Part shown: piece by piece, positions 1 to 40,091 of the stretch
How the letters are laid out: each line of letters starts with the position of its first letter
Numbering within the stretch: position 1 is the stretch's first letter
Source: Escherichia coli
GTDB taxonomy: Bacteria; Pseudomonadota; Gammaproteobacteria; Enterobacterales; Enterobacteriaceae
Direction: 5' to 3' (one strand)
Length of the DNA stretch: 64,000 bases
Assembly: GCF_003334405.1 (NCBI RefSeq)
Contig: NZ_QOWM01000002.1
Position numbers and translations under genes: made by a program
Notes under the pieces: generated by a model
Databases searched by the model: none
What the model was told of the DNA's origin: nothing
The model's input: only the letters and a program-made list of their open reading frames with translations

Positions 1-1285
<1,285 letters not shown>

Positions 1286-1330
1286 TAATTTCACTATTTT
1301 CAGAAGGATAATTAATCTTTCTACGTGCAC

Positions 1331-1382
1331 GAACGGTCCCCTCGCCCCTTTGGGGTGAGGGTTAGGGTGAGGGGAACCCGTT
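1331..1382. repeat. GC-rich imperfect palindromic element (CCCCTCGCCCC...GGGGTGAGGG...GGGTGAGGGG) between convergent tldD and aaeR; possible bidirectional terminator
   Basis: Inverted repeat visible in sequence; related copy at 19192-19224. Confidence 0.5.
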
Positions 1383-1418: not shown

Positions 1419-2348
1419 TTACTTCTCTTTCCCGCGCCCGTGCATCTCCTGAAACAATTTACCGACCTCAACAAAATAATCCGTCAGCGAGTTGATCACG
1501 ACCTGTACCTTCAGCGGCAGCTTATCTTTTTCGGTATATAACGCATAAACCGGGCGTGGATCTGACTGGTAACGCGGCAGCAGGATCTCCAGCTCCCCAC
1601 GATTGATCTCGTTGATCACCCACATCAGCGGCACGTAGGCGATCCCGGCACCCGCCGTCAGCCAGCGCACCAGCGTCATCGGATCATTAGTCACAAATCT
1701 TCCTTGTGGGATCAGGCGAGTCGAGATCCCTTCCGGTGCGATCAGTTCAAATTCATTGTCGGGCCGCACGCTGTATTCAAGCCATGAATGACTACTCAAA
1801 TCGGCGGGTTTTTCCGGTATGCCGTATTGTGTGAGATAGCTTTTCGCGGCGCACACCACCATTGGCATCGCGCCCAGACGGCGGGAAAACAGGCTGGAAT
1901 CCTGCAACGCGCCGACGCGGATCACCACATCCAGACCGTCGGCAATCAGGTCGGGGGCTGGAATTCCGGTAACCAGATTGACGCTCAAACCTGGGTATTC
2001 TTTCAGCATTTTGGCTGTCAGCCCGGCGAGAACATTTTGTGCCATAGTTGAAGAACAGCCAATGCGTAGCGTCCCGATGGGGGTGTTATTGAAGGCATAC
2101 AGTTGCTCATGAACATCCTGCACTTCATGAAGCATACGACGGCAGCCCTGGTAGTAAATTCTACCGGCTTCGGTCAGGCCAATGCTGCGTGTGCTACGGT
2201 TTAACAGCTTTACCTGCAACTCATCTTCCAGTTTTGATACCGTCTGACTGATGGACGAAACGCTCATCTGTAGCTGTCTGGCGGCGGCGGTAAAAGAGCC
2301 AAATTCAACTACTTTGGCAAACACCGACATGCGTTTTAGTCGTTCCAT
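1419..2348 (-). CDS. aaeR: LysR-family transcriptional activator of aaeXAB
   Basis: 309 aa ORF, N-terminal HTH typical of LysR family; divergent from aaeX. Confidence 0.9.
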   Translation of the reverse strand: MERLKRMSVFAKVVEFGSFTAAARQLQMSVSSISQTVSKLEDELQVKLLNRSTRSIGLTEAGRIYYQGCRRMLHEVQDVHEQLYAFNNTPIGTLRIGCSSTMAQNVLAGLTAKMLKEYPGLSVNLVTGIPAPDLIADGLDVVIRVGALQDSSLFSRRLGAMPMVVCAAKSYLTQYGIPEKPADLSSHSWLEYSVRPDNEFELIAPEGISTRLIPQGRFVTNDPMTLVRWLTAGAGIAYVPLMWVINEINRGELEILLPRYQSDPRPVYALYTEKDKLPLKVQVVINSLTDYFVEVGKLFQEMHGRGKEK

Positions 2349-39979: not shown

Positions 39980-40091
39980 CCCCGGCTAGACCGGGGTGCG
40001 CGAATACTGCGCCAACACCAGGGAAATCTTGGCTGCGCCGTAAATTATTATGATGAGTTACAAGGGCACAGCACTGTTTTTCAGGCCGCAC
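39971..40091 (-). ncRNA. arcZ: ArcZ (RyhA/SraH) Hfq-dependent sRNA, antisense to the arcB 3' end
   Basis: Minus-strand sequence GTGCGGCCTGAAAAACAGTGCTG...CCCCGGTCTAGCCGGGGTCATTTTTT matches the ArcZ sequence as I recall it and ends in an intrinsic terminator hairpin plus U-run. Confidence 0.85.

What the first reader, a model, noticed from the sequence alone, without database searches (positions are those of the whole stretch)
1331..1382. GC-rich palindromic element after tldD, with a sibling copy after nanA
The tldD/aaeR convergent spacer contains a nested palindrome built from CCCCTCGCCCC and GGGGTGAGGG(TTAGGGTGAGGGG), flanked by AACGG/CCGTT. A shorter relative sits directly after the nanA stop codon at 19192-19224. 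They share the core CCCCTCGC...GGGTGAGGGG and are distinct from the canonical REP sequences at 60111-60209. They may be terminators, a minor dispersed repeat family, or protein-binding sites.
Basis: seen in the sequence. Interest (0 to 1): 0.35.

Follow-up and report, generated by a model that had tools for sequence, protein, structure and literature searches.

The report
Known BoxC repeat plus decayed relative
The GC-rich element after tldD is a catalogued copy of E. coli's BoxC ("triplex motif") repeat, and the hairpin after nanA is a collapsed leftover of the same family. Both are ordinary, but tracing the family showed that its copies bracket DUF559/YcjD nuclease genes in many bacteria, which may explain how it spreads.

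Summary
Window 1339-1374 (CCCTCGCCCC-TTT-GGGGTGAGGG-TTA-GGGTGAGGGG) is identical to MG1655 3,390,494-3,390,529. Holder et al. 2015 list this as TMECO no. 14 (= BoxC = PIT element).

Site 1 (after tldD):
- It fits the published consensus and carries the family's conserved 5' flank.
- It has about 18 BLAST-detectable relatives per E. coli genome.
- It lacks a terminator consensus, and published assays found no terminator activity.
- The locus is indel-polymorphic: only about 37% of 5,422 genomes keep the spacer at 95% identity or more.

Site 2 (nanA-nanT hairpin, 19187-19227):
- It fails the consensus, and BLAST finds only itself.
- The orthologous Pseudocitrobacter spacer holds an inverted pair of full BoxC copies between the same flanks. 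Kluyvera holds a degenerate copy.
- It is therefore best read as a collapsed BoxC remnant.
- It is near-invariant in 99.8% of genomes.

Beyond the finding, DUF559/YcjD nuclease genes are bracketed by inverted BoxC copies. This holds in Mitsuaria (3 of 3), four other lineages (4 of 4) and E. coli ycjD. BoxC-encoded peptides appear in 49/120 and 78/120 homologues, against 0/135 controls. I found no paper describing this.

Verdict: a known element of low interest in itself, with a moderately interesting lead attached.

The parts
41..1285 (+). tldD coding sequence (3' part of the gene; context). Its stop codon lies 53 nt before BoxC block 1.
   Evidence: ORF list; annotation of identical E. coli records.
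1327..1338 (+). Conserved 5' flank of BoxC (GCAC-N3-ACGGTC).
   Evidence: Alignment of 10 K-12 paralogues shows (a/t)C(g/a)GTC directly before CCCTCGCCCC in all of them, and gcaC further upstream in most.
1339..1348 (+). BoxC block 1, the pyrimidine block CCCTCGCCCC.
   Evidence: Identical to TMECO no. 14 in Table 1 of PMC4666352.
1349..1351 (+). Loop 1 (TTT).
1352..1361 (+). BoxC block 2, the purine block GGGGTGAGGG. It pairs with block 1 through 9 Watson-Crick pairs plus one G-T. Most family members, including the O157 allele at this locus, have A instead of this T.
1362..1364 (+). Loop 2 (TTA), which defines 'type A'.
1365..1374 (+). BoxC block 3, the purine block GGGTGAGGGG. It is the mirror repeat of block 2: 8 G-G, one T-A and one A-T in antiparallel register. 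Together with block 2 it also forms a four-G-run motif.
   Evidence: (12-nt direct repeat 1350-1361 / 1362-1373).
1375..1382 (+). 3' flank. AA is shared by most paralogues. CCCGTT is local to this spacer; it pairs with the 5' flank here but is not conserved in the family.
1419..2348 (-). aaeR coding sequence (context), convergent with tldD.
18292..19185 (+). nanA coding sequence (context).
   Evidence: Translation; annotation.
19187..19227 (+). The nanA-nanT hairpin, read as a collapsed BoxC remnant. The outer arms CCCCTCGC (19193-19200) and GGGTGAGGGG (19212-19221) correspond to outer BoxC blocks. The middle TCGCCCCTACC (19201-19211) retains part of a block 1.
   Evidence: The orthologous spacers of Pseudocitrobacter (inverted pair of full copies) and Kluyvera (degenerate copy) are.

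Best explanation
What is shown:
- Site 1 is copy no. 14 of the E. coli K-12 BoxC family, also published as PIT elements and as TMECO (triplex motif of E. coli). This is a roughly 50-nt non-coding dispersed repeat made of a pyrimidine block, its near-complement and a mirror copy of that complement, plus a conserved 5' flank.
- It sits as a passenger in the convergent tldD/aaeR 3' spacer and has no terminator anatomy.
- Its visible effect is local instability. In most E. coli genomes the element has lost 6, 7 or 12 nt from block 2, the kind of change expected from slippage between the two 12-nt direct repeats or across the hairpin.

What is shown by orthology and otherwise inferred:
- Site 2 is what remains after such decay of BoxC material in the nanA-nanT spacer. 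The outer blocks survive and form a plain hairpin that can no longer fold three ways.
- This remnant is fixed and nearly invariant in E. coli. It probably persists as a harmless or mildly useful RNA hairpin inside the nan operon.

What is inferred about the family's origin (about 0.4 on its own):
- BoxC copies are the inverted end-repeats of a small selfish unit that encodes a DUF559/YcjD Vsr-like nuclease.
- Solitary copies such as site 1 would be its non-autonomous relics, as REPs are to RAYT genes.
For: Identity of site 1:
- The core is identical in sequence and coordinates to TMECO no. 14.
- It matches the published consensus, with 0 matches expected by chance.
- The flank is shared with 9 other K-12 copies.
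- BLAST finds a median of 18 and up to 35 places per genome in 5,426 genomes.
- BoxC is listed at 56 bp and 32-33 copies in K-12.

Instability of site 1:
- The 133-nt spacer is >=99% identical in only 957 of 5,422 genomes and <95% identical in 3,396.
- Sampled alleles carry 6-, 7- and 12-nt deletions inside block 2. One strain has the whole spacer replaced by a REP-type sequence.
- This agrees with PMC4666352.

Site 2:
- The half-motif occurs only at these two sites.
- The Pseudocitrobacter spacer has reverse and forward full copies between the same flanks (TGA GTT.TT.. / ..GGGTGAGGGG A..AAACGCATC). Kluyvera has ACGGCC-TCCTCTCCC-TGAA-GGGAGAGGA-GAAGGGGAAA.
- Collapse of inverted pairs to hairpins is already described.
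- The spacer is >=99% identical in 5,396 of 5,409 genomes.

DUF559 link:
- All 3 DUF559 ORFs in 1.07 Mb of Mitsuaria loci are bracketed by a forward and a reverse BoxC.
- The same is true for 4 of 4 further lineages examined at DNA level, two of which were chosen because their proteins showed no BoxC tail.
- E. coli ycjD ends inside a reverse BoxC, with TMECO no. 9 downstream.
- BoxC-encoded peptides occur in 49/120 and 78/120 homologues, against 0/135 control proteins.
- The family assignment is DUF559/PRK09767.
Against: Site 2:
- It fails the consensus, lacks the ACGGTC flank and has no BLAST relatives.
- Independent insertion of BoxC into the same spacer in different genera is not excluded.
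- I could not sample Escherichia albertii or E. fergusonii.

Insertion signature:
- No clean empty site was found. At tldD/aaeR (strain N96) and at adk/hemH the BoxC-free alleles differ over the whole spacer.
- Insertion boundaries and target duplications therefore remain unknown.

DUF559 link:
- The enterobacterial YcjD set is largely one orthologous locus, so it may count as a single event.
- K-12 ycjD has no BoxC upstream.
- O157 keeps an intact site 1, although the ST11/phylogroup E lineage is reported to carry eefRABCD in place of ycjD.
- Mitsuaria pairs are mostly reverse-then-forward (27 of 30), while the unit itself is forward-gene-reverse.
- No activity of any DUF559 protein on BoxC is known.

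Triplex:
- Triplex formation was seen only with single-stranded oligonucleotides. In vivo DMS footprinting was negative.
Confidence: 0.85

Rival explanations
1. The two elements are transcription terminators or 3'-end protecting hairpins. Site 1 would be a bidirectional terminator for the convergent tldD and aaeR genes. Site 2 would be an attenuator or stabiliser between nanA and nanT.
For: - Both lie just 3' of stop codons and fold strongly as RNA.
- Six of ten K-12 copies examined sit in convergent spacers.
- The site 2 spacer is more conserved than the adjacent coding sequence.
- Its G-U pairs form only in the sense transcript.
- REPs are now reported to act as dual terminator-stabilisers (bioRxiv 10.64898/2026.03.23.713779).
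Against: - There is no T-run after either hairpin on either strand.
- Published assays found no promoter or terminator activity for PIT elements.
- Site 1 is truncated in most E. coli genomes and replaced in strain N96 without loss of the genes.
- No Rfam family matches at either site.
Confidence: 0.15
2. Site 2 is an unrelated GC-rich hairpin whose arms resemble BoxC blocks by chance or convergence. Only site 1 belongs to the family.
For: - Site 2 fails the consensus.
- Its flanks differ.
- BLAST finds only itself, with a median of 1 place per genome.
- Its evolutionary behaviour (invariant) is opposite to that of site 1.
Against: - The half-motif is expected 0.00 times in the window.
- The shared stretches are TCCCCTCGC, CCCCT and GGGTGAGGGGAAA.
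- Orthologous spacers in two other genera carry full or degenerate BoxC between shared flanks.
- The collapse of pairs to hairpins is a documented fate.
Confidence: 0.12
3. BoxC is a functional DNA structural element selected in its own right. It would act as an intrastrand triplex or G-quadruplex that the cell uses to pause replication, generate adaptive variation, or bind a host protein.
For: - The blocks are in perfect triplex register, and the purine half is a four-G-run motif.
- NMR and CD show a stable triplex for near-identical oligonucleotides.
- The same three blocks recur in distant lineages with different flanks.
- One variant changes T-A.A to C-G.G in all three blocks (L156 upstream copy).
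- Loci containing the element are more variable than controls.
Against: - The duplex form dominates when the complementary strand is present, and the in vivo footprint was negative.
- No association with gene function was found.
- Copies decay freely by deletion.
- Retention of one exact sequence, rather than any triplex-forming sequence, points to common descent or a sequence-specific partner.
Confidence: 0.1
4. The BoxC-DUF559 adjacency is real but not functional. BoxC copies may simply insert preferentially beside DUF559 genes. Alternatively, the inverted copies may drive inversion of the gene rather than its mobility.
For: - 'DUF559 domain-containing protein' is enriched (odds ratio 14) among predicted programmed-inversion targets in PMC9881135. 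That result also reflects flanking inverted repeats.
- Most enterobacterial cases are one orthologous locus.
Against: - The two flanking copies co-vary with each other within each lineage: complementary loops in L155, a shared 22-nt insert in Caulobacter, and variant blocks in NC10.
- They sit at fixed distances from the start and stop codons in unrelated genomes.
- This pattern is what is expected for the ends of a single unit.
Confidence: 0.3

Closest known systems
BoxC (Bergler 1992; Bachellier 1999) = PIT elements (Hoyne 2000, 2002) = TMECO (Holder 2015, PMC4666352)
   Same: Site 1 is literally member no. 14 of this family: the same sequence, coordinates, consensus, flank, intergenic position and population instability.
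   Different: Nothing differs for site 1, apart from a T instead of the usual A in block 2. Site 2 has only one purine block and a 4-nt TCGC duplication, so it lies outside the consensus.
REP/BIME elements and their RAYT (Y1 transposase) genes, the 'REPtron'
   Same: - Short GC-rich intergenic palindromic repeats, often in inverted pairs and often 3' of genes.
- They replace one another in the same spacers: REP in place of BoxC in strain N96, Citrobacter, Yokenella and Enterobacter.
- A small nuclease-type gene is bracketed by inverted copies.
   Different: - The sequences are unrelated.
- BoxC has three blocks rather than one hairpin.
- Copy number is about 20-30 rather than several hundred.
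- The associated gene is a PD-(D/E)XK Vsr-like DUF559, not an HUH/Y1 enzyme.
- No activity has been shown.
MITEs of enterobacteria (ERIC/IRU and similar)
   Same: Non-autonomous dispersed intergenic repeats with inverted symmetry, and presence/absence polymorphism between strains.
   Different: - No target-site duplication or clean empty site was found for BoxC.
- Solitary BoxC copies are not bounded by terminal inverted repeats.
H-DNA / intramolecular triplex and G-quadruplex motifs
   Same: A homopurine-homopyrimidine mirror repeat, with triplex formation proven in vitro for the oligonucleotide and associated local genetic instability.
   Different: It is one specific conserved sequence with conserved flanks, spread as a repeat family. 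It is not a compositional class, and the structure has not been detected in vivo.
Vsr-fold homing endonucleases (I-Bth0305I, PDB 3r3p), placed in the same PD-(D/E)XK group as DUF559 in PMC3424549
   Same: They provide a precedent for a Vsr-like nuclease acting as the engine of a selfish element. The only solved relative of YcjD is 3HRL, deposited as 'endonuclease-like protein'.
   Different: Homing endonucleases sit in introns or inteins and have no flanking repeat family. Nothing is known about YcjD substrates.

Membership tests
BoxC / PIT / TMECO | Matches CCCTCNCCC-N3-6-GGGNGAGGG-N3-GGGNGAGGG | tested here: met
   Site 1 matches at 1339-1373, with 0 matches expected in shuffles.
BoxC / PIT / TMECO | The same consensus, applied to site 2 | tested here: not met
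   Site 2 has only one purine block. It matches only the relaxed half-motif.
BoxC / PIT / TMECO | Listed in the published K-12 catalogue | tested here: met
   Site 1 is TMECO no. 14, 3,390,529-3,390,494, type 'A mm'. Site 2 (MG1655 3,372,644-3,372,676) is not listed.
BoxC / PIT / TMECO | Multi-copy and dispersed in the genome | tested here: met
   The site 1 query finds a median of 18 places per genome, up to 35, in 5,426 of 5,426 genomes. The site 2 query finds a median of 1.
BoxC / PIT / TMECO | Conserved flanks of the roughly 56-bp BoxC unit: (a/t)C(g/a)GTC at the 5' end and GAA at the 3' end | tested here: met
   Site 1 shares the flank with 9 K-12 paralogues. Site 2 shares only TC and GAAA.
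BoxC / PIT / TMECO | Intergenic location | tested here: met
   Site 1 lies between the tldD and aaeR stop codons. Site 2 lies between nanA and nanT.
BoxC / PIT / TMECO | Homology by position: is site 2's spacer occupied by full copies in relatives? | tested here: met
   Pseudocitrobacter has an inverted pair and Kluyvera a degenerate copy. Salmonella has none, in line with the published absence of TMECO there.
BoxC / PIT / TMECO | Folds into an intrastrand purine-motif triplex | not testable with these tools
   The register is compatible. NMR and CD data exist for type A and type B oligonucleotides that differ from site 1 by one base.
REP / BIME | REP consensus hairpin (GCCGGATG..CATCCGGC type) | tested here: not met
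   There is no resemblance. True REPs are present at 60111-60209 for comparison.
Intrinsic terminator | GC-rich hairpin followed by a T-run | tested here: not met
   No site was called at either element on either strand.
MITE | Terminal inverted repeats with a target-site duplication, and clean empty sites | tested here: inconclusive
   BoxC-free alleles at tldD/aaeR and adk/hemH differ across the whole spacer, so no junctions can be read.
REPtron-like unit (repeat family plus cognate nuclease gene) | Nuclease gene bracketed by inverted copies of the repeat | tested here: met
   - DUF559 genes in Mitsuaria, 3 of 3.
- Burkholderiaceae MAG, a JGI metagenome, an NC10 MAG and Caulobacter, 4 of 4.
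- The 3' side of E. coli ycjD.
- Peptide footprints in 49/120 and 78/120 homologues against 0/135 controls.
REPtron-like unit (repeat family plus cognate nuclease gene) | The encoded protein binds, cuts or mobilises the repeat | not testable with these tools
   No experimental data were found.

The most novel reading that the evidence does not exclude
BoxC/TMECO elements are the cis-acting inverted ends of a widespread selfish unit that encodes a DUF559 (YcjD-type, Vsr-fold) nuclease. The unit occurs in Alpha-, Beta- and Gammaproteobacteria and in an NC10 genome. The nuclease would recognise the three-block fold and mobilise or homogenise the copies. Solitary copies such as the one after tldD, and collapsed hairpins such as the one after nanA, would be its non-autonomous debris. 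This would give BoxC an origin and YcjD/DUF559 a function, in the way RAYTs did for REPs.
Probability: 0.35. Interest if true: 0.65.

Novelty: already known. Interest (0 to 1): 0.35.

Why it matters
It can be annotated as BoxC/TMECO no. 14, a repeat that the current RefSeq K-12 record leaves unannotated. The nanA-nanT hairpin can be annotated as a BoxC-derived remnant.

The wider question stays open. BoxC was described in 1992, and its origin, mode of spread and function are still unknown. The bracketing of DUF559/YcjD genes by inverted BoxC copies makes that question directly testable by a genome census and a simple nuclease assay. It would also assign a role to a very large family of uncharacterised proteins.

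The contrast between a hypervariable full element (site 1) and a frozen hairpin remnant (site 2) is a neat natural illustration of the published claim that instability requires all three blocks, not just the hairpin.

Tried and rejected
- Rfam at gathering thresholds: nothing at either site. The only hits in the window were ArcZ and the greA leader.
- Terminator and promoter consensus scans: nothing at the elements.
It gave neither a taxonomic census nor any E. coli copies.
- BLAST of site 2 against 5,426 genomes: it found only itself. The test is weak, because short shared words fall below the E-value limit in a 28-Gb database.
- MAFFT alignment of the nanA-nanT spacers: it misplaced the BoxC pair, so I aligned the flanks by eye.
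- Search for clean empty sites at tldD/aaeR (strain N96), adk/hemH and zntA/tusA: BoxC-free alleles replace the entire spacer, or none were sampled.
- Attempt to relate ycjD presence to BoxC copy number or intactness across E. coli: the search tool lists too few rows per query to cross-match genomes. The few rows seen hint at fewer copies where ycjD is absent, but this is confounded by phylogeny.
- PADLOC: no defence-system match for the DUF559 proteins.
- Literature searches for TMECO, intrastrand triplex after 2015, DUF559, ycjD, and a nanA-nanT stem-loop: no paper links BoxC to DUF559 or describes the nanA-nanT hairpin.
- RepRanger paper: it does not mention BoxC.
- My coordinate guess for the REP region in NC_000913 was off by about 2 kb, and I did not pursue it.
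Full report
**1. The observation**

Both sequences are present as described.

Site 1 reads GCACGAACGGTC (1327-1338), CCCTCGCCCC (1339-1348), TTT, GGGGTGAGGG (1352-1361), TTA, GGGTGAGGGG (1365-1374), then AACCCGTT.
- Besides the inverted arms there is a 12-nt tandem direct repeat, 1350-1361 / 1362-1373.
- Block 2 pairs with block 1 through nine Watson-Crick pairs and one G-T.
- Block 3 is the mirror image of block 2, with eight G-G, one T-A and one A-T in antiparallel register.
- The design is therefore pyrimidine-purine-purine, not just a nested palindrome.

Site 2 reads CCCCTCGC (19193-19200), TCGCCCCTACC, GGGTGAGGGG (19212-19221). It begins 8 nt after the nanA stop codon. Its stem arms are 19187-19203 / 19211-19227.

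Neither site is a chance event.
- The published three-block pattern occurs once in the window.
- The relaxed half-pattern occurs only at these two sites.
- Both have 0.00 matches expected in shuffles.

**2. What site 1 is**

The window is E. coli K-12-like DNA, in reverse orientation relative to MG1655.
- The 133-nt tldD/aaeR spacer is identical to MG1655 3,390,450-3,390,582.
- The 36-nt core is identical to MG1655 3,390,494-3,390,529.
- Table 1 of Holder et al. 2015 (PMC4666352) lists exactly this sequence and these coordinates as TMECO no. 14, type 'A mm'.
- The same paper states that TMECO is the element first called BoxC in the 1990s and rediscovered as the 'potential intrastrand triplex' (PIT) element by Hoyne and Maher.
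- Other papers give BoxC as 56 bp with 32-33 copies in K-12.
- A 59-nt query around site 1 finds a median of 18 and up to 35 places per genome in all 5,426 complete E. coli genomes.
- The RefSeq K-12 record annotates nothing in this spacer, which explains why the element looked unexplained.

**3. Anatomy of the family**

I fetched nine other K-12 'A mm' copies and put them in register.
- All carry (a/t)C(g/a)GTC immediately before CCCTCGCCCC.
- Most carry gcaC a few bases further upstream, and most carry GAA after block 3.
The 3' CCGTT is peculiar to this spacer.
- Of the ten loci, six are convergent 3' spacers and two lie inside operons (pstA-pstB and yihS-yihR).

**4. How site 1 behaves in the population**

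The spacer is >=99% identical to the window in only 957 of 5,422 genomes. It is 95-99% identical in 1,069, 90-95% in 2,756 and 80-90% in 640.

Sampled alleles show the following.
- O157 has the canonical GGGGAGAGGG in block 2.
- Three strains have 6- or 7-nt deletions inside block 2.
- Strain S6 has a 12-nt deletion that leaves the plain hairpin CCCCTCGCCCCTCTGGGGTTAGGGG.
- Strain N96 has the whole spacer replaced by an 81-nt REP-type sequence.

This reproduces the published finding that TMECO loci are unusually variable and that degenerate copies are common.

**5. What site 2 is**

By the family's own criteria, site 2 is not a member.
- It has one purine block.
- Its flanks differ.
- It is not in the catalogue.
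- BLAST finds only itself.

It does share TCCCCTCGC, CCCCT and GGGTGAGGGGAAA with BoxC. I therefore fetched orthologous nanA-nanT spacers through NanA and NanT homologues.
- Pseudocitrobacter faecalis has, between the same flanks (TGA-GTT.TT on the left; GGGTGAGGGG-A..AAACGCATC and TTCATACCAAAGCG on the right), two copies:
  - a reverse full copy, CCCCTCACCC-TAA-CCCTCTCCC-TCAA-GGGAGAGGGG-ACGGT;
  - a forward copy, CCCTCTCCC-TGA-GGGAGAGCG-CCG-GGGTGAGGGG.
- Kluyvera has one degenerate forward copy.
- Salmonella and Klebsiella aerogenes have none. Holder et al. report that TMECO is absent from Salmonella.
- Yokenella, two Citrobacter species and Enterobacter bugandensis have REP-type sequence instead.

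Holder et al. describe inverted TMECO pairs collapsing by internal deletion into simple hairpins. The E. coli sequence is what such a collapse would leave. I judge this about 80% likely. Independent insertion into the same spacer is the alternative.

In contrast to site 1, the 108-nt spacer is >=99% identical in 5,396 of 5,409 genomes. Strains that differ at several positions in the flanking coding sequence are identical across 19160-19310 apart from one T-run length change.

**6. Function**

- Neither site has a hairpin followed by a T-run on either strand.
- No Rfam family matches at either site.
- The literature reports no promoter or terminator activity, no effect on RNA polymerase, and DNA polymerase arrest only in vitro.
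- A stable triplex was shown by CD and NMR for single-stranded oligonucleotides that differ from site 1 by one base. With the complementary strand present the duplex forms, and in vivo DMS footprinting was negative.
- For site 1, the supported effect is therefore local indel instability, not regulation.
- For site 2, three observations allow a modest RNA role inside the nan operon: the strong sense-strand hairpin (z -5.1, against -1.0 for the antisense strand), its position in the 108-nt spacer between the co-oriented nanA and nanT genes, and its invariance. The role could be 3'-end protection of a nanA segment or partial attenuation, as now reported for REP325. This is inference only.

**7. 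Wider distribution**

- The genomes were Mitsuaria (Roseateles) chitosanitabida with at least 143 copies, a Methylomirabilota/NC10 MAG, a Contendobacter MAG and an unnamed MAG.
- In all of them the blocks are the same, CCCTC[T/G]CCC, GGGAGAGGG and GGGTGAGGG. The flanks are lineage-specific.
- Holder et al. counted 3,610 copies in 262 proteobacterial genomes.

**8. An association not found in the literature**

While inspecting Mitsuaria loci with several copies, I found a 139-aa ORF 20-25 nt downstream of a forward BoxC, with a C-terminal tail that is itself encoded by reverse BoxC sequence.
- It is DUF559 (Pfam E = 2e-38).
- It matches the NCBIfam model for E. coli YcjD (E = 1e-28, below that model's equivalog cut-off).

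The evidence for a general association is as follows.
- Mitsuaria: a profile search of all 1.07 Mb of fetched loci found three DUF559 ORFs. All three have a forward BoxC just upstream and a reverse BoxC at or just after the stop codon. The third was missed by the strict pattern only because its loop 1 is 7 nt long.
- E. coli K-12: ycjD lies next to fabI (envM), the locus whose sequencing paper (Bergler 1992) is cited for the first description of BoxC. Its stop codon sits in a reverse BoxC that has lost 12 nt, and TMECO no. 9 lies 168 nt downstream.
- E. coli HR12-1: the reverse copy is complete, CCCTCACCC-CAA-CCCTCTCCC-TGAAA-GGGCGAGGG, with the stop codon TGA in loop 1. A recent paper notes a '12-nt insertion at the 3' end' of ycjD in some lineages without explaining it.
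- Homologues of the Mitsuaria protein, searched with the tail removed: among the 120 best, 49 carry strong BoxC-encoded peptides. Of these, 24 are N-terminal (..PLSRxRERVRVR), 46 are C-terminal (..PHPNPLPQAGEG, PSPQPSP, LTPALS) and 21 have both.
- Homologues of YcjD: among the 120 best, 78 carry such peptides, typically ..LPSPRPSP at the very end.
- Controls: none of 135 NanA/NanT proteins carries them.
- DNA-level checks: four further homologues all showed forward-gene-reverse bracketing. Two of these, from NC10 and Caulobacter flavus, were chosen because their proteins showed no such tail.
  - The flanking copies co-vary within each lineage: complementary loops in one, a shared 22-nt insert in loop 2 in Caulobacter, and variant blocks CCCTCCCCC / GGGGGAGGG / GGGTGGGGG in NC10.
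  - In the upstream NC10 copy, a T-A.A position is replaced by C-G.G in all three blocks.
- Literature: searches for DUF559 and ycjD found no paper that connects them with BoxC. One survey lists 'DUF559 domain-containing protein' as enriched among predicted programmed-inversion targets, which is probably the same inverted repeats seen from another angle. DUF559 is grouped with Vsr and a Vsr-fold homing endonuclease in the PD-(D/E)XK classification. Its only solved relative is 3HRL.

**9. Shown versus inferred**

Shown:
- the identity of site 1;
- its flanks, copy number and polymorphism;
- the lack of terminator anatomy;
- the occupancy of the nanA-nanT spacer by BoxC in two other genera;
- the invariance of site 2;
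- the physical bracketing of DUF559 genes by inverted BoxC copies in several unrelated lineages.

Inferred:
- that site 2 descends from a BoxC pair;
- that deletions arise by slippage;
- that DUF559 proteins act on BoxC;
- that solitary copies are relics of such units.

Against the last inference:
- the enterobacterial cases are largely one orthologous locus;
- K-12 ycjD has no upstream copy;
- O157 keeps an intact site 1, although its ST11/phylogroup E lineage is reported to carry eefRABCD in place of ycjD;
- close pairs in Mitsuaria are mostly reverse-then-forward, 27 of 30;
- no clean empty site was found.

**10. Verdict**

The finding as given is an already known repeat (site 1) plus a decayed derivative of it (site 2). 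Interest in itself is low, about 0.15.

The DUF559 association raises the overall score to 0.35. It would make the long-standing question of what BoxC is directly testable. I put the functional reading at about 0.35 probability.

Noticed in passing
L045 5881-6600; L046 1113-1752; L048 11500-12030; L152 2180-2460 (MG1655 ycjD 3' region); L153, L155, L156, L157, L158: DUF559/YcjD-type nuclease genes are bracketed by a forward BoxC just upstream and a reverse BoxC at the stop codon. This holds in Mitsuaria, a Burkholderiaceae MAG, a JGI metagenome contig, an NC10 MAG, Caulobacter flavus and (on the 3' side) E. coli. BoxC-encoded peptides occur in 49/120 and 78/120 homologues against 0/135 controls. 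I found no description of this in the searched literature.
   Followed up: partly
L127 1425-1505 (E. coli strain N96, tldD/aaeR spacer): In this strain the whole BoxC-bearing spacer (133 nt) is replaced by an 81-nt spacer containing a REP-type sequence (GCCGGATGCGGCATAAACGCCTTATCCGGCC). About ten of 5,426 genomes lack full coverage of the K-12 spacer.
   Followed up: partly
window 19250-19293: There is a second small hairpin, GTGGGCATCGCCCAC, just upstream of the nanT ribosome-binding site (GGGAGA). It is conserved together with TTCATACCAAAGCG in E. coli, Kluyvera, Pseudocitrobacter and K. aerogenes, and partly in Salmonella. That is more widely than the BoxC remnant.
   Followed up: no
L010-L116 (Mitsuaria chitosanitabida loci): Of 30 close BoxC pairs, 27 are in reverse-then-forward orientation, with 25-272 nt between the copies. 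These interiors share no homology between loci and often consist of short tandem repeats.
   Followed up: partly
L156 380-400 and 735-775 (NC10 MAG JACPAT010000070.1): This is a variant core, CCCTCCCCC / GGGGGAGGG / GGGTGGGGG. In the upstream copy one T-A.A position of the canonical element is C-G.G in all three blocks. This is a single example of three-way covariation, consistent with selection on the three-block fold.
   Followed up: no
L134 vs L159/L160 (adk-hemH spacer): E. coli has two unrelated alleles of the adk-hemH spacer. One is a K-12 type of about 230 nt containing BoxC. The other, in O157 and strain D10, is about 130 nt with a different hairpin (GCAGCAGATCTGC..GCAGGTCTGCTC). Only 2,913 of 5,426 genomes have the K-12 type.
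   Followed up: partly
MG1655 fabI-ycjD-sapF region (L152, L158): The ycjD 3' region is covered at 80% or more in only 3,366 of 5,426 genomes. A 2026 paper reports ycjD and the eefRABCD efflux operon as alternative occupants of this site by phylogroup. Downstream of ycjD there is also a duplicated fragment of the gene's 3' end with a second, degenerate reverse BoxC.
   Followed up: partly
window 1419-2348 equivalents in NZ_CP144930.1 and NZ_CP144926.1: Two strains carry an IS1B insertion that splits aaeR into two LysR-domain ORFs.
   Followed up: no
L132 (E. coli 01G17CRGN001): In this strain nanA and nanT are annotated as partial pseudogenes that meet in the middle. A deletion has removed the nanA 3' end, the spacer with the hairpin and the nanT 5' end.
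   Followed up: no
window 39984-40091 (-) and 61736-61857 (+): Rfam gathering-level matches to ArcZ sRNA (120.8 bits) and the greA leader (127.5 bits). Both are expected features of this K-12 region.
   Followed up: no
protein collection, cluster of E. coli NanA: The 90%-identity cluster that holds NanA also contains full-length NanT proteins. The two families were presumably linked by a fused or mis-called sequence. This is a database artefact worth knowing about when using cluster membership.
   Followed up: no
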